Of a stretch of 20,000 nucleotides of DNA, positions 1-11,539 are shown piece after piece. Both the position numbers and the translations under genes were made by a program. The DNA comes from an uncultured virus (IMG/VR IMGVR_UViG_3300021364_000014). Lineage: Duplodnaviria; Heunggongvirae; Uroviricota; Caudoviricetes. The stretch lies in the IMG/VR virus record IMGVR_UViG_3300021364_000014. One strand, given 5' to 3'. How positions within the stretch are numbered: the stretch's first letter is position 1; each line of letters opens with the position of its first letter. The notes under the pieces were generated by a model. That model had not been told where the DNA came from and searched no databases. It saw only the letters and a program-made list of their open reading frames with translations.

Positions 1-3000
1 TCAATTTCAGGATTGGTGTTTGTAACACCATCAATCTTGACGACATAGTGCTCAAGAGGTTCTCTTCCAAGTCCACTAACTGTTAGAATAGTTCTACCAG
101 TTGGAGTTGCGGATACATTGGTGATTGTTGCAATATCAAAGACGTATGGATCTTTTCTGAATCCTGTACCTCTTAGTGCATATTGTCCAAAGTTGGTAGC
201 GGAGTTGGTGATAGATGCATAACCACCAGACTCACAGAGGACACCATCAGAACAGAAGATAACAAAGACCGAAACCAACTGGGTATAACCATCGTTGATA
301 ACTTTATATCCTGTACCACCAAAGGAGACGATCGTGAATGCCGCAGCAACCATCGATTTACCTTGGTTGGGGAAGGATGCAGAACCGTCTAGTTCCAGAC
401 CAGGGAAAGGACAGTTGGGTTGCTTGACCTTAGAACCGTCAATTAAAGCACCGCCACCACCTAGGAAGGAGATAACAGATGCGTTCTGGGTGTAAGGAGA
501 TGCTTCAATAATTGGGAAGTCATCAAAGTCACCACGAACCGCCATTCTGACGCCATCCTGATCATAGATGTAGCTGTCAGGATAGGTTAGAATTTGTGAA
601 GTATCATACAGAGTTCCTGTGTTCTTAGTTGTAACACCAGGAGCAACTGTACCGTCTAGAATATCTTCTAGTAGAGCGAATAATGTTGTAATTGTGGATG
701 CTACGTTTGCACAATCTGGGTTTCCAGGATCAGCAAGAATAGTTCCGTCAGTGAATTGTGGGATTGGCGAAGATGTAGTTACAGGAGTGCCAGCACCATC
801 AGTCCAGTTACGCATTGCAGCAATAGCGTAATCTCTTACTTGCTGATATGCATATAGAGTTTGTGGTAAATATGCAGAATCAATACCTGTTAGTTGTGCT
901 CCAGTGTAGTAGAACTCTGCATTAGTTACAGTTCCTGAATTACCACCTAAGCACAAGTCTCTTACAAGACCTTTGAGGATGAATCCAATATCTCTTCTGC
1001 ACTTTCTTTCGTCTACATTATTAAGTCCTAGTGCTGGATACTGAACAAGAGTATCAAGATATGCTTGATCAGCAATAAGATCCTTGTTGCGAGCAATCAG
1101 ATATGCTGCATCTAGATATGTTCCAGAAGCATTATTTGCAATAACGTCTACCCAGAGGTATGCTAAAGTATCAATAGCAGATGCTACGTTAGCACAAGCA
1201 GGTGTTCCTGCTGTTGTTGTGATAACAGTATCATCAAAGTATCTTGGTAGAGTGGAATATACAGGTGTGTAGACAGGATCGCTTGGAGTTCTATTACCAG
1301 TTCTCCAGTTACACATTGCAAAGGTTGCTAGTTCTCTAGCATACTCAATTGCACGAACTGTTTGAATAATCTCATTCTCTACATATGCAATCTTGGCACC
1401 AACAATATACTTCTTAGCGGCTTCGATTACGTTAAAGTTGGATCCAAATTCTAGGTCTCTAGCTAGAGCATTCAAGAAGTGAACAACGTCTTCACGACAC
1501 TGATCATCATCAACAGGAATGCTGAAACTTGGATATAGTTTCTGACCATTATCACATTCCAGTAGAATGTTGTTGATCTGAACAGTGTCATCCTCTGCGA
1601 TTCCAGGAATTGGAGATGCTAGAGTAACTGTTGCAGCACCACTGACTACATTATCCCAAACAAAGTTTGTGATATTGTAAGAGTTTCCACCATACGTAAC
1701 CGTACCGCCACTTACATACGTATGCGTTTGACTTGTAAAACCAAGATAAATCTTGAATTCCGAACCACCAACACTCAATGCGTTGGATACAGATCTGACA
1801 AATGTATGTGTAGACTGTGGTAAATGCTTGACAGCATTAGCGGTTGCACCAACAAACGAATGTGGAGATTGTGGTTCAAACTTAATTGCATTAGCAGTAG
1901 CAGAAACAAAGGTGTGAACAGAACCAGATGCAGTTCCTGCACTGCCAACATTGAGAGAAATCCAACCATCTTGTCTTCTGATCGCATTAGCAGAAGCACT
2001 AACAAACGTATGTGCTCCTGTATATGGGGAAGATCCTACATTGATTGTGAACGTATTTGCGTCAATAACTACAATTGGCATCCAGCGTCCAGATGGATAA
2101 TCATAACCAGCACGTGGATATGTCTTTTGTGCAGTATTTCCATCTAGATCACAAGTGTATGTGAGAGATCCATCTTGAATCTGTACATAATCACCACTAG
2201 TAAATCCATGACCAGCAACTGTAAATGTTACCGTTCCTGTTGCAGCATTATAAGGCGCGTCAGTGGGAGTATGCTCCGTATACCCAACATCAGTAAGAGG
2301 AATAGACTGACCAGCATATGGGTCAGAACCAGGACGTGGATATGTGTGCTGAGTTGCGTTGCCGTCTTGATCGCAAGTAAATGTAAATGAGTTATCGGAA
2401 AGAACTACACTGCGTCCAACTCCAAGACCATGTTGACCGATTTGGCATAACATATCTCCTGTAGCAGGATTATAGTTTACCGCAGATGGTTGGAAATACT
2501 GGTTTGGTTGAGATGCACCAGCATTTACAGTGATAGTGTTTGCACCAACTGCTGTGATAGGCATAGACCTACCAGCAAATGGATCGATACCAGGACGAGG
2601 ATATGTTTTAACCGACTGATATCCATCCATGTCGCAAGTAAACGACAGGGAGTTATCATCAATAACAATACCTTCACCAACAGAAAGTGTATGTGTACCG
2701 ATTGTAAGAACTAAATCTCCAGTAGCAGGGTCATAGGAAGCACCAGATGGAGTCCACTGTTGATTTGCTCCAGATGCACCTACATTTACAGTAAAGGTAT
2801 TTGTGTCTGCGGCAGTGATAGGAAGTGCTTTTCCACTTGCATACTGGTCAGATTCGGGCAGAGCGTGCTCTGTCTTATTGCCGTCCATCGTACAAGTGAA
2901 TGTGATGGATTCATCGGCAATCTTAACACCATCACCAACTGAAAGACCATGGTTTGCTACTGTGAATACGGAATCACCTGTAGCAGGATCGTATGTTACA

Positions 3001-5498
3001 TTGGTTGGAGTGTAAGCGGAATCTACAGCACCACCAATATCGTATACAGAGTAGTATTCTTTCTTGAATTGGTCGTTGATCTTTCCTACAACTTCATCAG
3101 CGATGAAATCTCTGTTGTTACGGATGAAGGTAACAGCATCCTGATATCTTCTATCAACAGGAGAAGATAGTGGGAATTTGTTTGGAGAGTTTAGTAGGGA
3201 TAGGGTGATACTCTTGGAGTATGACTTTACAACAGCAGCAGATCCTGGTTGGAAGTTAGCATCTGTAATTGCTGGGAACTTCTTAGGAATTACGAATCTT
3301 CTGCAGCGACCGTCAGCGTCTTCGATAACTTTGTAGATTCTCTGCTTACCATTCAATGCAGACAAGTCGGGACCAGCAGTAGGAAGACCGCTAATTTCAA
3401 TCTCCTGACCTTCTTTGAAATCGTGGAAGTTTGTTCTACCGACTAGTTCACTGGTGTAGAATACAACACCACCAAGGTCTTCGGCATTGCCAAATTGTGC
3501 AGAATGTACACCATCTTGAGTAATAGATGGGTCTCCTTGTAATGAGAAATCAATTCTTTGAATTGGTAGAGTTGCTGTGATGTTCTCATCAACAGATACA
3601 ACTTCACCTTCTGCTCTAATAGAAATTAGTTCAGTGGTATCAATTTCTTCTACAATAATGTTTGCATCATTGATGGTGAAGTTGCATGGTCCAATAGTAT
3701 CAAAAGTAGGTGCGCCTAGAATTGGCGAGAATGATACGTACCACTCAGTAGCAGGAATGCTATTCTCAGCATCCTCGTTATCATTTACCTCAATGATTTC
3801 GTAGAACTGAGTTCCAGTAAAGAATGTATTTGGAACGTCATCGATAGCAACATAAACACCACCAGTAAATGATACACTTTCTGGATTGCTGCTAAACTTG
3901 AGAGTATTAGATGCGTAAATTTCTGACGATGACTGTAGTAAACTACCTCCATCAGAACCGCTGATTAGGTATCTAAAACTTTCACCCTGAATAAAGGAAC
4001 CAGACTTCAGTGTAACATCAATTGTACCTGTTAGGTATGCACTAGCACCAATTGCGGTTGTGAAAGATACATCAATAATTTCTGCTCTAGCACCAGAGTT
4101 AATACCAACAATTTCTAGACCAGTTTGTAGTTGTGATAAACCTGTGTTATCTTGGAAGCTTAGACGGAACTGATCGGGTCCAAAAATTTGGTGACCGATT
4201 GGGAAGTTAGTTCCAAAGTCTCCGTTGGTATCATAATCAACGATAACACGCTGTTTATCGTCAAATACCATCGCAAAATCCCAAGTTGCGACAGAATCAC
4301 CAAATGCGTCAACTTGGTCTCTATAAGTAACACCAGTAACGTAGTTCTTATCGCCAAACTTAAAGATGTGCTTCTTGGGGTTAGCAGGTCTGATGATTAC
4401 CAGACGCAAGTTGTCACCAACAACAGAGCAGTCAGGAGGTAGAGAGATTGGGTTATCTTCTACGTAGTCTCCACCAGAAACAATCAGTGTTTCTTTGACA
4501 CCAGGAGTTGCCCATGCTAACTGTGCTGCTTTTTTGATAGAGCGAACAGGACTGACAGCAGAGCGACCATCGTTTTCGTCAGAACCAATCTGCTGAGAGA
4601 CATAGATTCTGCCACCAACGTCATTGGTTGCTAGGTTTAGAACGTATTCTGTAGTAGCAATCTTGTCCGATCTGTCACCCAATAGTGGTGTGATAGATCT
4701 TGGGAATACGCCTGCTTCTCCAGTGGTATTGTAACCAAATGCTTCCTCGTCAATAACTCGGAAACCAATATGCTTAAAGTTGACTTCTCCGTTTAGAACT
4801 ACACCATCTACGTGCTCAGGTGCATCGGATCCAGTCTGTCCAGTGTTTAGTGCCTGATAAACGTTGGCACCAAAATATCTGTAAGAATCTTTTTGGATAA
4901 TAACATTGTCAGCCCAGGGAGTACCTGTATTGTTGACATATGTTTTGAAATTTGGACCTCTTAGGTTTAGGTCAGGTGTAATAAAGTTGTCAATATCAAG
5001 GTTTAGAATTCTCGCCGTATCAGAAATGATAGACGTGGAGGTTCTAATAGCACCGTTGATGTCAAGTTCAAAGTCAACCGTGTCAAGTTGTACTGTTGCA
5101 GTAGCACCAGCACCGCCACCACCACCAGTAATGATGGCATTGGGAGCAGATGTATATCCACTACCAGGGTTATTAACAGCAATGTTGATTACTCTGCCGT
5201 TGAAGATAAACGCAGAAGCAAGTGCTTGTACACCACCAGGAGTGGATGGAGGATCAATCGTAACAGAAGGAACAACAGTGTAACCAGTACCACCATCTGT
5301 TACGGTTACAGTGTTTACTCTCTGTCCAGTTCGGTTGATACCAACACGTGGCAAGGATGTATCAGGATCGAGTTGAGTTCTGAGAATTTCTTTCTCAGCT
5401 GCCCCAACGCCTGCCCTAATTGTTACTTCATTATCACCGATAAAAGCAGGTTTTGAACCTCTAAAAGTCTCTTTATCGGAATTAATGTTAAAACTCAT
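1..5498 (-). CDS. Giant multidomain virion structural protein (tail/baseplate appendage), 3'-truncated by the window edge; at least 1832 aa
   Basis: ATG at 5496-5498 (MSFNINSDKETFRGSKPAFIGDNEVTIRAG...). Hand translation stays open to position 3 (...PLEHYVVKIDGVTNTNPEI). It is missing from the ORF track, consistent with no stop inside the window. A TAAATA late-promoter core and AGGAG lie upstream. It contains a beta-helix-type start (RIYVSQQIGSDENDGRS...SGGDYVEDNPISLPPDCSVVGDNLR), YDPATG/FTCxxDG/HTFV repeats and C-R-x-D/CANV helical repeats of the kind I recognise from cyanomyovirus giant structural proteins. Confidence 0.9.
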   Translation of the reverse strand, partial: MSFNINSDKETFRGSKPAFIGDNEVTIRAGVGAAEKEILRTQLDPDTSLPRVGINRTGQRVNTVTVTDGGTGYTVVPSVTIDPPSTPGGVQALASAFIFNGRVINIAVNNPGSGYTSAPNAIITGGGGGAGATATVQLDTVDFELDINGAIRTSTSIISDTARILNLDIDNFITPDLNLRGPNFKTYVNNTGTPWADNVIIQKDSYRYFGANVYQALNTGQTGSDAPEHVDGVVLNGEVNFKHIGFRVIDEEAFGYNTTGEAGVFPRSITPLLGDRSDKIATTEYVLNLATNDVGGRIYVSQQIGSDENDGRSAVSPVRSIKKAAQLAWATPGVKETLIVSGGDYVEDNPISLPPDCSVVGDNLRLVIIRPANPKKHIFKFGDKNYVTGVTYRDQVDAFGDSVATWDFAMVFDDKQRVIVDYDTNGDFGTNFPIGHQIFGPDQFRLSFQDNTGLSQLQTGLEIVGINSGARAEIIDVSFTTAIGASAYLTGTIDVTLKSGSFIQGESFRYLISGSDGGSLLQSSSEIYASNTLKFSSNPESVSFTGGVYVAIDDVPNTFFTGTQFYEIIEVNDNEDAENSIPATEWYVSFSPILGAPTFDTIGPCNFTINDANIIVEEIDTTELISIRAEGEVVSVDENITATLPIQRIDFSLQGDPSITQDGVHSAQFGNAEDLGGVVFYTSELVGRTNFHDFKEGQEIEISGLPTAGPDLSALNGKQRIYKVIEDADGRCRRFVIPKKFPAITDANFQPGSAAVVKSYSKSITLSLLNSPNKFPLSSPVDRRYQDAVTFIRNNRDFIADEVVGKINDQFKKEYYSVYDIGGAVDSAYTPTNVTYDPATGDSVFTVANHGLSVGDGVKIADESITFTCTMDGNKTEHALPESDQYASGKALPITAADTNTFTVNVGASGANQQWTPSGASYDPATGDLVLTIGTHTLSVGEGIVIDDNSLSFTCDMDGYQSVKTYPRPGIDPFAGRSMPITAVGANTITVNAGASQPNQYFQPSAVNYNPATGDMLCQIGQHGLGVGRSVVLSDNSFTFTCDQDGNATQHTYPRPGSDPYAGQSIPLTDVGYTEHTPTDAPYNAATGTVTFTVAGHGFTSGDYVQIQDGSLTYTCDLDGNTAQKTYPRAGYDYPSGRWMPIVVIDANTFTINVGSSPYTGAHTFVSASANAIRRQDGWISLNVGSAGTASGSVHTFVSATANAIKFEPQSPHSFVGATANAVKHLPQSTHTFVRSVSNALSVGGSEFKIYLGFTSQTHTYVSGGTVTYGGNSYNITNFVWDNVVSGAATVTLASPIPGIAEDDTVQINNILLECDNGQKLYPSFSIPVDDDQCREDVVHFLNALARDLEFGSNFNVIEAAKKYIVGAKIAYVENEIIQTVRAIEYARELATFAMCNWRTGNRTPSDPVYTPVYSTLPRYFDDTVITTTAGTPACANVASAIDTLAYLWVDVIANNASGTYLDAAYLIARNKDLIADQAYLDTLVQYPALGLNNVDERKCRRDIGFILKGLVRDLCLGGNSGTVTNAEFYYTGAQLTGIDSAYLPQTLYAYQQVRDYAIAAMRNWTDGAGTPVTTSSPIPQFTDGTILADPGNPDCANVASTITTLFALLEDILDGTVAPGVTTKNTGTLYDTSQILTYPDSYIYDQDGVRMAVRGDFDDFPIIEASPYTQNASVISFLGGGGALIDGSKVKQPNCPFPGLELDGSASFPNQGKSMVAAAFTIVSFGGTGYKVINDGYTQLVSVFVIFCSDGVLCESGGYASITNSATNFGQYALRGTGFRKDPYVFDIATITNVSATPTGRTILTVSGLGREPLEHYVVKIDGVTNTNPEI
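1774..3014 (-). repeat. Four degenerate ~80-100 aa beta-sandwich-like protein repeats (YDPATG...H...FTCxxDG...YPR...VNVGAS...HTFVSATANA), nested
   Basis: Hand translation gives YDPATGD, YDPATGD, YNPATGD, YNAATGT and FTCTMDG, FTCDMDG, FTCDQDG, YTCDLDG. These are followed by HTFVSASANA, HTFVSATANA, HSFVGATANA, HTFVRSVSNA. Confidence 0.85.
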
Positions 5499-6046: not shown

Positions 6047-9000
6047 TTACTTCTTAGTGATGGTGGATGATACAGTAATATTTACTGTATTTGTTGGTGC
6101 AACGTTTTGACCCAGTAGGAAATTAATTCTAACTTCATTTTGTGGAGTAAGTTCGAAGGTTGGAATGATGAGTTGTACACCAGTTCTCAAGTTTCCATAC
6201 TCAGTGTGATATACATCAGTTGTGTTATTTGTAACACCAAACTCAATGAACTCACTATCACCTGTTGTTGGATTGGTTGCAATAACAACTGTCTTACATC
6301 CTGCATTTGTTGCAGTAGCATATAGAACAGAGTTACCATTATTAGAAGTTCCTTTTACCAGGGAAATTTTTTCTGTTAGAATCTTGACATCAGCAAGTTC
6401 GAACTCTTTCAGATCTCCGTCAAATACCTTGACACCAGTGAATGTACCCGTTCCAAATGTTGTGTTGAAATACACATCACCTTGGTTGTCGAGTCTGAGA
6501 ACAGGATCAACAGTTAGACCACCAGACAATCCGAGATCAAAGTATTGCTTAGATGTATGTAAGAAGGTAGTGTCTACTGCAGTGTTGTCTAGTGTGGTTT
6601 CTGCATTATTGAATGTCATCAAATTTGCAGTAATTTCAAACTGGTTGCTTGTCTGAGATCTAATAGTATCTACAGAGAAGAAGTCCATAGCAGTTGTGGT
6701 CAACTGTACGGTATTGTTTCCATCATTGTAGAAGTACAGGATGTTCTCGTTTGCACCAGGAGATGTTTCTGGGATGATATATGTGTTTTGATCAACGTCT
6801 TTGACACCACCAAGAGATCCCCAGTTAGTTCCATCATAACCTTCATATAGTTGGTCACTGGTGTTGAATCTGATAGAACCAATCTCAGCAGCACCTCTAT
6901 CTGCTGTCGTGCCACTAGGAATGACCAATGTTGTATTCGTATCAATCTTGACTTTCTTGCCAGGGTTTGGTCTGATTAGAAGATCATTGACATCAGTAGA
7001 GATTACATTGTTTAGGAATCTCAATTCTCCACTAACAACTAGTGGAAGACCACCAAGTTTACCAATTCTGAGTTCTTCAATATCTTCAAACTCTAGTGGT
7101 GCAACTGCAAGACCCCAGAAAGTAAGAACTGCAGAACCATTTGGTTGTGCTCCAATGGTATGAGTTGGTTCGTTACCAGTGGTAGCAGTTGTACCTGCGG
7201 TAGTTACTTCATATAGATTGTTTCTATACTTGAGATATTGACCTAGTGTTACTGGAGTATTGGCATTATAAAGAGTGTAATCAGGTGCTAGAACATTGTT
7301 AGAACGAATCTTTTTCATGTTCTGGAACTCCAGGTGCTGTGGAGTTACCTTAATGGTGTTGACATTATCATTGATAAACCATAGAGTGTTATCATTAGCA
7401 CCAATCGTCTCTTCTGCTAGAATGTAGGTGTTACCGTCTAGGTCTCTAACACCACCAAGAGAAGACCATGTAGTGGTTGATACACTATATCCTTCATACT
7501 GACTGGTTTCTGTGTTGAAACGGATGCAACCATCTCTTACAATGCCAGGTCCAGGTCTTTCAGAAGTGTTGCCAGCAGGGACTGCAAGTGCAGTAACCGT
7601 GTTTGTATGTACAATTCTACCCAAATCAGGAACAAGACTGATGTCTTGAGTATTCTGAGATGTGATAGATGTTGTAGCAGCGTCAATGACTAAGTTTGCA
7701 CCAACACGAATTTCTGGAGACTCAAGATATCCAGCAGTGGTCAAGTTACCACTTGCACCAGTGATAGCAAATTGACTACCAAAGTTGAATGCTAGAGCGG
7801 TAAAATTAATACTTTCTAGTGTTGGTTCTGGAACTGTCAGTTCTAAGTTTCCACTGGCAGGTTGCAGTAGTGGAGTTGTTACGCTAGTAGTAGCAACAAC
7901 TGTTGAAGATGCGAGTGCATTGATTGTAGCTTCTGGTGATGAAATATCTTGAGTCGTTAGAAGATTACAAGTAAATTCACCTGTTAGAACTTCGCCTTTG
8001 ACAATTTGTTCTGTGGTTACATCAGTAACTAAAATCTGAAGACCAGTACCAAATGTCTTTGGATTGACTGGATCAATAGTTAGAGTTGCCTCGTCATTAT
8101 CATCTCCTCCTTCATTTACGTGAGCAGGGTCTTCTGTAGCACAGTAGTAATAGAGAGTTGGAGTGTTCTCAGTAACTTTGATTGTTAGATCTGCATCTGT
8201 TCTACTAACACCAGTAGTGTACTCAGCACCCTGAACAGTTACTACAATATCACCTTCTGTTGTTGGTGTATTATTAAGTCTTAGTGTAGTTCCGTTTACA
8301 ACTTCTTCAATTATAGTTGCGTCTGCTAGAATACCATCACCAGACTCTTTTACAACTTCCATTCCAGCAAGCATACCAGTTGTGCTTGCAACAATGATAT
8401 TTTTAGATGTTGTGGAAACTGTTGTGCTTACACCTTCAAATCTACTTGGACCCCATTGTCCATCTCTGAACTGAGACAGAGCAAAGATGTGAGATCCTAG
8501 TGATGCATCTTGCAAATCAAACTTGTAAGAGTTGCCAGCATACATTGTCCACGATGGTGTCATTTGAGCACCGTTGCCATCGTTTAGATCAATGTAGAAT
8601 CTATACTCTAGTGATGCTGTGTTGATATCATAACCAACAGCAGGAGCATTCTCATTTACAAGGACATCTCCATCAGCAAAACCAAAGGTATCGGTAACAA
8701 TAGTGGTAATATTGCCACCAGATGTATTGACTTTTCTAACAGTAACAGGATCTCCTGCGTCATTAACAGCGTCAACTGTTAGAACAAGGTTGTCTGCAGG
8801 AGTGGAACCACCAACAGCAGCACCAGCAAGAGTGATTGTATCGTTTGTTGCGTAGAAAGATCCCTCAGATCCTGTTGTAATAACAGCAGAAAGGACAGCA
8901 CCTGTGTTGTCTCTTTGTACATCAAATGTAGCGCCAGTACCATTTCCAGATGTATTGATCTGTGGAACTGCTGTGTATACACCATCTGCTGCTCCAGGAA

Positions 9001-11539
9001 CTGTTGTAGAAACGGTTACTGTAGATGCAAGGATAGATCCACCAGCATCTCTTACCTGATCCCCTACAGAGAATGTTGCGGCGGGAATTACATTGCTTAC
9101 AAAATCGATGATATCAACTTCAGCGTTTGTGACTGTGTAAACTTCTGGTTGTACGAGGTCAAATGCATTGACAGTTAATGTATCACCTTGAGAATATCCA
9201 TTACCACCATCAATAACGGTTACTTCGCTGATTACGCCAAGTGTACCAACGGTGTACTGGAATCCTGTACCACCACCATATTCTGGTTCGAAGTTTACAA
9301 CCATTGCACCAGCGGTAATTGGTGCAATAGACAAAGTAACTTCTGTTGCGCTTACAATATTGGTAACAGTTGTTCCATCAATAATTCCACCTGCACCACT
9401 TACATACACAACTTCCATTCCAGTTGTGATACCAGAAGTATCTGGTACAGTGATGTTTGTTATATTTTGGTTTGTAACTCTCAGGTCTGCATTACCAGGA
9501 ACAGTTGGTGCTTCAGAGATTGTAAACTGAGTTGCGCTATCAACACTAACAACAACAGCTCCACCAGGAATTTGACCAGGATTATTAATGTTTTGAATTA
9601 GATCAACTGCGTCACCAACTTCAATACCAGCAGTAGAAGCAACAGTAATCTGTGGACTTCCTGCTTCAATCGTAGAAACAGAGATAGCAAGGTCGTTACC
9701 ACCAGATCCTGGTACAGCACCAGAAGCGCCTCCAAGCGATCCTCCAGGGATATAGAGCGTGTCTCCTGGTAAGTATCCAGAACCAGCGTTGACGATGGTT
9801 ACAGAGTCATAGAAAGTGTTTCCACCACCACTACTGACAACAACATCTACAACCAGTCCAGAACCATTACTGTTTAGAGTAGAAACTAAAATATTTGAAT
9901 ATGTTGTGTCAGGACCAGCAGCGTTACCAGTAAATTGAATTTCAGTAACACCAGCATTAGATGTAAATGTTACACCTAAGAATTCAATTTCACCCCTAGC
10001 ATATGTGCTGACATTGTTGACCGCAGTTGCTAGTGTAAGAACATCTCCAGTCTGATATCCAAGACCAAAGTCTGCAATGCCATCTAACTCATCAATAGAT
10101 CCGAAGTTTCCACCAAGAGTGTATGCAAAACCAGAACCCTCTACTCCTGCTTGTAGACTGTTAGCATCATAAAGATCTAAAGGATCAACAGATAGGACAT
10201 CACCTAATTGATACAGACCATCTCCACCATTTGTAATAGTGACGGTTGAGATAACACCACCGAGATCATCAACAGTCATAGAGAATCCAGACTGTGATGG
10301 ACTTGGATCAACTAGAGTTAGTTGACCACCCATATTTGGGTGAACACTACAATTGTAGAATAATGTGTTATTATTAGGTGTTGCTGGTACTGTGAAAGTA
10401 ACAATCTTAGTTGTAGCGCCAAAGTAACCAGCAAGGAAGTTTGCTCCAGTTACAGTAACGCCATCTAGTTCATAAACAACACCATCAGCAGCATCGATTA
10501 TAGCATTAGTATCATCTACTGCAGTAGAGATGTAAAATGGGTGTTGATTTGATGTAGTATCACTTACATCAAACACATAAGTTTTTCCTTTTAGGAGGTT
10601 GAAATCTCCACCTAAGAAACCATCAATAAAATACTGGTTACCAAGGGAAGATTTGACTTCAAATGTTTGTGTACCAGTTGTGGTGATTGCTGCAGTTAGT
10701 ACATCGCCTACTGTATACTGAGAAGTAACAGATACAAACTCACTGCTGTCAACTCCACCAAACTGCTGCACACCGCCATTTACAACACGGAGATTACATT
10801 TCATTCCAGAACCATTACCACCAGTCATGGTAATGCTCTTGAACAAACCATCTGGATAGTTGGAACCAGATGTGACAGTAGCACCAAACAGACTGACCTC
10901 AACCTGTGCTTCCATGCCACTGCCGCTACCACCAGTCAGGGAAACATTGTTATATGTTCCAGGATAGTAGTTGATACCAGCGTTGGTGACAACACCAGAG
11001 ATTTGTGGTACTGTGAAATCAATCAGAGCGCCACTACCACTACCACCAATCAGTGGAATGTTTAGATAAGAACCAGGAGTATATCCAGTACCAGTATTAG
11101 AAATAGCACCTTGGAAACCATCGACGGTGAGACCTAGTAGTGCAGAGTCACCAGTACCGCCAATGGCAGGAATGTCTGTATAGTCACCACCATCATAGTT
11201 TTGACCAGCATTTTGAATTGATAAGAACAAACTGTCGAGACTGTTCTTCTCAATAATAAAGTCTTTGTAATACTTAGTGGAACTGGCGGATAGATCAGCA
11301 AGTTTCTTGCTTTGACTTGCAAAACCAAGAACACCGTTACTTGATCTGTATACACCCAGTGTGGTATCATTAACAAACGCTAGTGATGGTGTCGTTACAG
11401 AACCATCACCAAGTTTCAAATTACCAGTAGATAGGTCAGACCCACCACTACTGATTTGGAATAACTGAGAACCGAGTTCATTGATTTTTACCCTTTGTTG
11501 TTCAAAGGTATCGGTTCTTGCGACGTTAACTGCTGGCAT
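6047..11539 (-). CDS. 1830-aa tail-fibre-like virion structural protein with Gly-rich repeats, cupredoxin-like and CBM-like modules
   Basis: ORF track. N-terminal [14 protein letters not shown] (attachment-type N-terminus of T4-like fibres), fibre motif [22 protein letters not shown], many GSGY/GDVLT units, two IRFNT...YEGY..W.SLGG repeats, and a T/G/V/S/N-rich composition. Confidence 0.85.
   Translation of the reverse strand: [1830 protein letters not shown]
6690..7588 (-). repeat. Two degenerate fibre repeats 220 aa apart (LxVPxGxTxxR...IRFNT...YEGY...WxSLGGVxDxDxNTYI)
   Basis: [13 protein letters not shown]...[15 protein letters not shown]...[19 protein letters not shown] (from 7588) versus [12 protein letters not shown]...[37 protein letters not shown] (from 6928). 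Confidence 0.85.

What the first reader, a model, noticed from the sequence alone, without database searches (positions are those of the whole stretch)
1530..3060. Matryoshka stalk: four repeats inserted one inside another, within a fifth, permuted unit
Seen: four N-portions occur consecutively (YDPATG...FTCxxDG...), and then four closing strands occur consecutively (HTFVSASANA, HTFVSATANA, HSFVGATANA, HTFVRSVSNA). Only the innermost unit is contiguous (YNAATG...INVGSSPYTGAHTFVSASANA). Unit 3 breaks after SIPLTDVG and resumes at DGWISLNVGSAG...HTFV, supplying exactly the missing xNVG strand. Units 2 and 1 break after VNAGAS/VNVGAS and resume at PQSPHSFV/PQSTHTFV. The set sits between YSVYDIGG and GGSEFKIYLG...HTYVSGG...LECDNGQKLYP, which looks like a circularly permuted relative. 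Inference: the order is 1[2[3[4]3]2]1, so the chain goes out and comes back. This would give a doubly tethered, length-tunable side arm from a single polypeptide rather than beads on a string. I know of no description of this in cyanophage virion proteins, but could not search.
Basis: partly seen in the sequence, partly recalled or inferred. Interest (0 to 1): 0.85.

Follow-up and report, generated by a model that had tools for sequence, protein, structure and literature searches.

The report
Self-nested barrel arm, cyanophage fibre
A giant tail-fibre-type protein of a marine cyanobacterial virus carries four copies of one small barrel domain plugged one inside another within a fifth, rearranged copy, most likely forming an optional out-and-back side arm; this rare build is known from cyanobacterial RNA polymerase, and what the arm does is untested.

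Summary
Observation confirmed; structural reading supported. The ORF (3-5498, minus) is a T4-like cyanophage 'tail fiber' protein (PHROG 5342). Four barrel openings are followed by four closing segments. In an AlphaFold2 model (pLDDT 88, pTM 0.74), single-domain matches span six nested ranges: 288-391, 213-424, 127-441, 40-459, 28-540, 1-577. Folded as separate chains, the last two closers dock on units 1 and 2 in reverse order (0.70, best control 0.00). Relatives keep openings and closers equal at 1, 2, 3, 4, 7 and 11 units (207 of 212 clusters after tuning; 168 of 201 on first pass). The fifth unit is a true circular permutation. At this site the arm is all-or-none: 13 empty, 34 filled, none between, so 'length-tunable' holds only across the family. 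The barrel resembles E1-FCCH and endosialidase barrels. It sits inside a phycobiliprotein-like helical domain, probably inside a tailspike-like domain. Closest precedent: Si3 of cyanobacterial RNA polymerase; sheath proteins nest unlike domains. Ten literature searches showed no description for cyanophage virions. This scan found the same build on other genomes, some deeper. Function (accessory adhesion or spacer arm) is inferred.

The parts
3..5498 (-). Host ORF, 1832 aa in the window, cut by the window edge; about 3,370 aa in a near-identical relative. T4-like cyanophage tail-fibre-type protein
   Evidence: (PHROG 5342, E=0)
4254..4616 (-). N-half of a tailspike-like domain (aa ~295-415); probable outermost host
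   Evidence: profiles of both halves hit adjacent stretches (561-635 and 678-792) of one P-SSM5 ORF; inferred, not modelled
3066..3143 (-). First helix of a phycobiliprotein-like helical host domain (aa 786-811)
3030..3062 (-). Permuted barrel (unit 0), first strand YYSVYDIGG (aa 813-823)
   Evidence: empty site; range 28..540
2766..3023 (-). Barrel 1, outward part (aa 826-911)
2505..2765 (-). Barrel 2, outward part (aa 912-998)
2283..2504 (-). Barrel 3, outward part lacking both the xNVG strand and the closer (aa 999-1072)
1971..2282 (-). Barrel 4, the only contiguous unit, tip of the arm (aa 1073-1176)
1878..1970 (-). Return part of barrel 3: DGWISLNVG strand and HTFVSATANAI closer (aa 1177-1207)
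1821..1877 (-). Closer of barrel 2, PQSPHSFVGATANAV (aa 1208-1226)
   Evidence: W915 and aa 944-947 touch aa 1222-1225
1770..1820 (-). Closer of barrel 1, PQSTHTFVRSVSNAL (aa 1227-1243)
   Evidence: aa 829, 859-861, 865-866 touch aa 1234-1242
1524..1769 (-). Permuted barrel (unit 0), remainder GGSEFKIYLG...LECDNGQKLYP (aa 1244-1325)
   Evidence: barrel N-half to its C-part E 2e-8; barrel C-half to its N-part E 3e-6
1134..1511 (-). Remainder of the helical host domain, from DDDQCREDVVHF (aa ~1330-1455; end estimated)
   Evidence: (modelled to aa 1362)
663..1124 (-). Second phycobiliprotein-like helical domain (aa 1459-~1612) with KCRRD; its two insertion sites are empty here and filled in relatives
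   Evidence: profile vs phycoerythrin alpha, E 6.5e-5
129..521 (-). C-half of the tailspike-like domain (aa ~1660-1790)
   Evidence: inferred

Best explanation
The region is an optional side arm of a giant tail-fibre-type virion protein. It is built from one ~100-aa beta-barrel (E1-FCCH / endosialidase-barrel-like) whose two ends lie together, so a copy can be dropped into a loop of another copy. Four barrels are nested 1[2[3[4]3]2]1 inside a circularly permuted fifth, which sits in a loop of a phycobiliprotein-like helical domain, probably itself inside a tailspike-like domain. The chain runs out through about 85% of each barrel and returns as short segments that complete barrels 3, 2, 1 and 0 in turn, so each joint has two chain connections and the main fibre continues from where the arm left. 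Shown by sequence comparison and models: topology, register, permutation, all-or-none presence, copying of the four-barrel block to other sites. Inferred: that it projects from the virion (about 0.75), and that it serves as an accessory host-surface contact or reach element exchanged by recombination (about 0.45). Topology alone: about 0.92.
For: Model: pLDDT 88.4, pTM 0.74, five models 86.2-88.4. Single-domain matches of 65-85 residues span six nested ranges. In trans, aa 1206-1245 docks on aa 826-999: score 0.70, best of 3 controls 0.00, mark reached by 116 of 157 solved complexes and 2 of 215 mismatched pairs, runs agree in at least 93% of contacts, partner pLDDT at least 80; unit 1 touches the last closer, unit 2 the third. 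Counts equal in 207 of 212 non-edge clusters, 141 of 144 with consecutive openings. Trees of 7 and 11 units balance, and all 6 unit-1-type openers in the 7-, 11- and L068 clusters are closed by the HxFxR-type closer under last-in-first-out pairing. Empty site in 13 of 47 orthologues; two ACG-2014j isolates differ by the whole arm. A BFVD model of ACG-2014d overlaps at rmsd 3.3 A over 319 columns. The fold match in endosialidase is a polysialic-acid binding site that affects host discrimination in phage K1F (PMC12632334, passages). A relative without barrels, S-SCSM2R ORF112, is in the virion proteome (PMC12801897 passages).
Against: All structure is predicted; both models used my alignment, whose rows carry the same register. 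Balance counts depended on tuning: 168 of 201, 154 of 210, 207 of 212. One cluster (L208) lacks a recognisable third-unit closer. In the 7-unit model the branch point (residues 329-360) has pLDDT under 50 and pTM is 0.58; only units 4', 2' and 1 were read out. Closer types other than the last are poorly separable (72-83% self-classification). The arm is absent from many viable phages (S-RSM4, S-PM2, S-WAM2). S-PM2 p088 is annotated 'hypothetical' while its neighbours are 'virion structural'. No ligand, length or orientation was measured.
Confidence: 0.75

Rival explanations
1. Same nested fold, but no selected role: the barrel spreads because its loops tolerate insertion and repeats recombine; the arm is tolerated accretion.
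For: Absent in 13 of 47 orthologues and polymorphic within ACG-2014j; near-identical phages differ by one barrel at another site; the block turns up at many sites.
Against: The four-barrel block keeps frame, order and many invariant residues at 53-92% identity across 36 sequences; no partial or decayed arm among 34 filled sites; about 1.27 kb of DNA is kept.
Confidence: 0.2
2. The arm is a structural strut or spacer inside the virion (contact with baseplate, sheath or neighbouring fibres), not a host-contact element.
Confidence: 0.25
3. The closers complete barrels of a neighbouring chain (domain swapping in an oligomeric fibre), giving a cross-linked bundle and not a single-chain arm.
For: The closers dock in trans in the model; tail fibres and spikes are usually trimers (recalled).
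Against: Short fixed linkers and strict last-in-first-out order in 7- and 11-unit trees fit in-chain closure; the single-chain model is confident.
Confidence: 0.07
4. The N-portions are complete tandem domains and the HxFV strands form a separate small domain.
For: Only the linear order of the motifs.
Against: Every stand-alone barrel ends in HxFV (65 AC clusters; H and F conserved in 65 rows); counts track from 1 to 11; model ranges and contacts place the closers in barrels 1 and 2.
Confidence: 0.03

Closest known systems
Si3 insertion of cyanobacterial RNA polymerase beta' (RpoC2)
   Same: Repeats of one small beta fold, several made from distant parts of the chain, forming an elongated appendage tethered at both ends (150 A, eight SBHMs; PMC10895346 passages); a six-level recursive insertion (PMC13114784 passages).
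   Different: Si3 uses the sandwich-barrel hybrid motif in a trigger loop. Here the unit matches FCCH/endosialidase/reductase barrels, lies in a phage fibre protein, includes a permuted copy, and is gained, lost and copied as a block.
'Russian doll' tail sheath proteins (T4 gp18 type, R-type bacteriocin sheaths)
   Same: Domains inserted one into another in a phage tail protein (PMC6088184 passages).
   Different: Two to four domains that are not copies of one another, in a conserved contractile protein; no sheath family hit here.
Beta-barrel of phage endosialidases (K1F, phi92) and FCCH domain of ubiquitin E1
   Different: Single inserts there, five nested copies here; below Pfam cut-offs; no binding shown.
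RTX-adhesin split domains, antigen I/II stalk, flagellin D0-D3 (recalled, not checked in a call)
   Same: Chain goes out and returns to display a tip.
   Different: Unrelated folds; not self-nested repeats of one domain.

Membership tests
PHROG 5342 cyanophage tail fibre protein | Profile match over the protein | tested here: met
   E=0, 2863 bits, aa 1-1575
PHROG 5342 cyanophage tail fibre protein | Part of the virion, acting as a fibre | not testable with these tools
   Annotation varies; only a barrel-less relative is reported in a virion proteome
Si3-type recursive insertion | Copies of one fold inserted recursively | tested here: met
Si3-type recursive insertion | Unit is a sandwich-barrel hybrid motif (SBHM/HABAS) | tested here: inconclusive
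   Best matches are FCCH, endosialidase and reductase barrels; the single barrel was not folded alone
Si3-type recursive insertion | Lies in the trigger loop of RNA polymerase beta' | tested here: not met
   Host is a phage structural-cluster protein
Tail sheath 'Russian doll' proteins | Domains nested in one another | tested here: met
Tail sheath 'Russian doll' proteins | Homology to tail sheath protein | tested here: not met
   None of 11 PHROG hits is a sheath family; gp18 is a separate gene in Syn1
E1 FCCH / endosialidase beta-barrel | Same barrel fold | tested here: met
E1 FCCH / endosialidase beta-barrel | Pfam gathering score (PF16190 29.5; PF12195 35) | tested here: not met
   18.4 and 15.2 bits; 16 and 4 of 65 barrels hit at E<=0.1
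E1 FCCH / endosialidase beta-barrel | Sugar binding as in endosialidase | not testable with these tools
   No assay; binding residues not compared
Phycobiliprotein fold (host domain) | Sequence or structure match to phycobiliproteins | tested here: met
Phycobiliprotein fold (host domain) | CxRD chromophore motif in the domain that hosts the arm | tested here: inconclusive
   Window has QCRED; CxRD in 18 of 47 orthologous sites. Role of the motif is recalled
Phycobiliprotein fold (host domain) | Bound bilin | not testable with these tools
   No assay

The most novel reading that the evidence does not exclude
Cyanophages have a recursive plug-in system for virion appendages: one barrel with at least four usable loops accepts copies of itself, whole four-barrel blocks or foreign cargo (a ~300-aa hydrolase-like insert in L068), so recombination builds branched, doubly tethered arms (up to 7 barrels deep in L235) that present glycan-binding barrels or enzymes and shift host range.
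Probability: 0.3. Interest if true: 0.82.

Novelty: new variant of a known kind. Interest (0 to 1): 0.62.

Why it matters
Most insertions are single-level and the complex case highlighted in a 2026 survey is six levels in RNA polymerase (PMC13114784, passages). Here five copies of one fold nest inside one or two more hosts, in a block that phages gain, lose and copy. It explains why these giant cyanomyovirus proteins resist domain annotation, gives cleanly excisable units for structure work, offers a natural pair (ACG-2014j US23 and US103) and a defined deletion to test a role in adsorption, and is a natural scaffold for branched protein design.

Tried and rejected
No whole genome is held for this window. 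Foldseek of the whole model against PDB gave nothing meaningful (best TM 0.12; Si3 8emb at rank 15, probability 0.08, rmsd 32.5). No SBHM chain is among the 50 rows, which does not exclude it. The barrel profile found no PDB sequence below E 0.49. The uninterrupted tailspike-like domain got no informative Pfam or PDB sequence hit, so its beta-helix fold is recalled, not shown. No contiguous form of that domain lay in my own loci (63 examined); it came from other phages. First two balance counts were lower because of missed degenerate closers, the permuted unit's own strand, HG/HSF motifs of the next unit and cluster splitting (inspected). The alignment for the 7-unit tree left its outer 250 residues at 3 rows. 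The tree is the quick version; 4 rows labelled otherB are site-1 arms. Joints in laid contigs, such as 1373-3031 in X2, may come from relatives or repeats and were not used; RNA contigs are patchy and show nothing about expression. The Cys list printed was mis-indexed and ignored. PMC9910659, PMC2984593 and PMC10665884 (passages) say nothing on nesting; the first lists S-PM2d088, the arm-less orthologue, among late-mutated ORFs. Protein-collection searches and the metagenome and genome scans were not used.

Full report
Setting. The finding lies in ORF 3..5498 on the minus strand (1832 aa, cut by the window edge). It matches PHROG 5342 'tail fiber protein' at E=0; upstream genes match virion structural families and DUF4815. 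The closest cultured relatives are T4-like cyanophages Sf-CH11, ACG-2014j, S-RIM44 and Syn1 (57-71% over the region; 328 phage records match, all named Synechococcus, Cyanophage, Prochlorococcus or Marine). In Syn1 the gene lies between gp8 and gp13. ORFs on the other strand over the region are at most 107 aa.

Observation. The units are 40-54% identical.

Relatives. Three scans of viral contigs gave 237 loci, with repeats of the same contigs. I counted openings with a profile and closers with a matrix or pattern, on distinct clusters away from sequence ends. Balanced and properly nested: 168 of 201, 154 of 210, and 207 of 212 after adjusting the rules (22 edge clusters left out). The rules were tuned after I read the failures, so the last figure is not a blind test. 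The patterns include 1/1, 2/2, 3/3, 4/4, 7/7 (L065, L155, L181) and 11/11 (L235, seven barrels deep). Of the five exceptions, one (L068) closes about 600 aa later, after a ~300-aa insert with GHSQGG and a weak hydrolase hit (E 0.023); one (L208) has a degenerate third unit; three are pattern misses or extras. In the 7-unit trees barrel 3 carries two inserts, one in each of two loops; pairs in L032 and L068 use a third loop, after the YP motif.

The site. Of 47 distinct orthologous sequences, 13 have only the permuted barrel (105-117 aa) and 34 have it plus the four-barrel block (about 527-540 aa); none is intermediate. ACG-2014j isolate US23 has the arm and US103 does not. S-PM2 p088 and S-WAM2 lack the permuted barrel too: the two helices are joined by a short loop. 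The empty unit is a circular permutation: the barrel's first half aligns to its second part (E 2e-8) and the reverse (E 3e-6). The same block occurs at a second site of this protein, empty in the window, and up to five times in other proteins. In a quick tree of 65 blocks the 21 site-1 arms form one side of a branch (SH-aLRT 97), apart from the site-2 copies of the same contigs, which suggests one old insertion at this site followed by loss or exchange.

Models. AlphaFold2 on aa 786-1362 with 36 sequences gave pLDDT 88.4 and pTM 0.74. Matches of 65-85 residues to single domains spanned 288-391, 213-424, 127-441, 40-459, 28-540 and 1-577: six shells, with barrel 2 ending at the third closer and barrel 1 at the last. 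The 213-424 range rests on one row. ESMFold2 on two separate fragments (aa 826-999 and 1206-1245) scored 0.70 against a best control of 0.00; the mark was reached by 116 of 157 solved complexes and 2 of 215 mismatched pairs; runs agree in at least 93% of contacts, partner pLDDT at least 80; the counts hold only roughly with my own alignment. The best pairs put unit 1 with the last closer and unit 2 with the third. This supports the register; it does not show binding, and the alignment rows carry the same pairing. A model of the 7-unit tree (pLDDT 80.1, pTM 0.58) gave ranges 534-637, 373-686 and 5-742, as nesting predicts, but its branch point is unresolved.

How it works. Shown: topology, register, permutation, all-or-none presence, block copying. 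Inferred: because the barrel's ends lie together, a copy can enter a loop without unfolding the host; the arm therefore leaves and rejoins the fibre at one point and has two chain links per joint. Recombination between like strands can swap whole subtrees: in the 7-unit trees barrel 3 is closed by a unit-1-type segment. My preferred role is an accessory host-contact or reach element (about 0.45), on the endosialidase analogy (PMC12632334, passages) and the patchy distribution; an internal strut (0.25) and tolerated accretion (0.2) remain open.

What is known. Recursive insertion of one fold is described for Si3 of cyanobacterial RNA polymerase (PMC10895346 and PMC13114784, passages; the second has no occurrence of 'phage'). 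Nested unlike domains are known in tail sheaths (PMC6088184, passages). Ten searches listed no paper describing self-nested barrels in cyanophage virion proteins; the library lacks most subscription papers and I read no supplements. Earlier notes of this scan report the same build on other genomes, some deeper; they are unchecked AI notes and gave me the Si3 and phycobiliprotein leads, which I then tested.

Verdict. Real and well supported as an architecture; a new variant of a known kind; function untested. Interest 0.62.

Noticed in passing
window 663-1124 and 1134-3143 (-): Two helical domains resemble phycobiliproteins; the second keeps KCRRD (profile E 6.5e-5 to phycoerythrin alpha), the first has QCRED.
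   Followed up: partly
window 129-521 and 4254-4616 (-): Two halves of a tailspike-like domain are separated by about 1,250 aa; the gap ranges 883-1839 aa in 63 orthologues and is short in P-SSM5 and S-SBP1 proteins.
   Followed up: partly
L068 protein aa ~1840-2450: A barrel carries a ~300-aa alpha/beta-hydrolase-like insert (GHSQGG) in one loop and a two-barrel nest in another.
   Followed up: partly
L235 protein aa 929-2080: Eleven barrels in a branched tree, seven deep, with eleven closers; not modelled.
   Followed up: partly
L082 protein aa ~1575-1690 versus window ~780: A relative 97% identical in the arm has one extra contiguous barrel in the second helical domain that the window lacks.
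   Followed up: no
window ~3200-3430 (-), aa ~690-765: HDFKEGQEIEISG...NGKQRI looks like one more, more distant barrel of the same kind upstream of the arm; seen by eye only.
   Followed up: no
L134, L187, L218, L211, L219 (proteins starting MARLI..., about 4,200-4,400 aa): An unrelated giant protein carries four or five copies of the whole four-barrel block; these form one clade.
   Followed up: partly
L248 ORF at 5154 (P-SSM5, 332 aa): A small protein with two barrel-like units, similar to PHROG 1276 in size, matches the arm at E 2e-17.
   Followed up: no
window 6047-11539 (-): The 1830-aa neighbour (PHROG 6005) is about 200-580 aa longer than its counterparts in Syn1 and S-PM2 and has many GxGY repeats; it may also hold insertions.
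   Followed up: no
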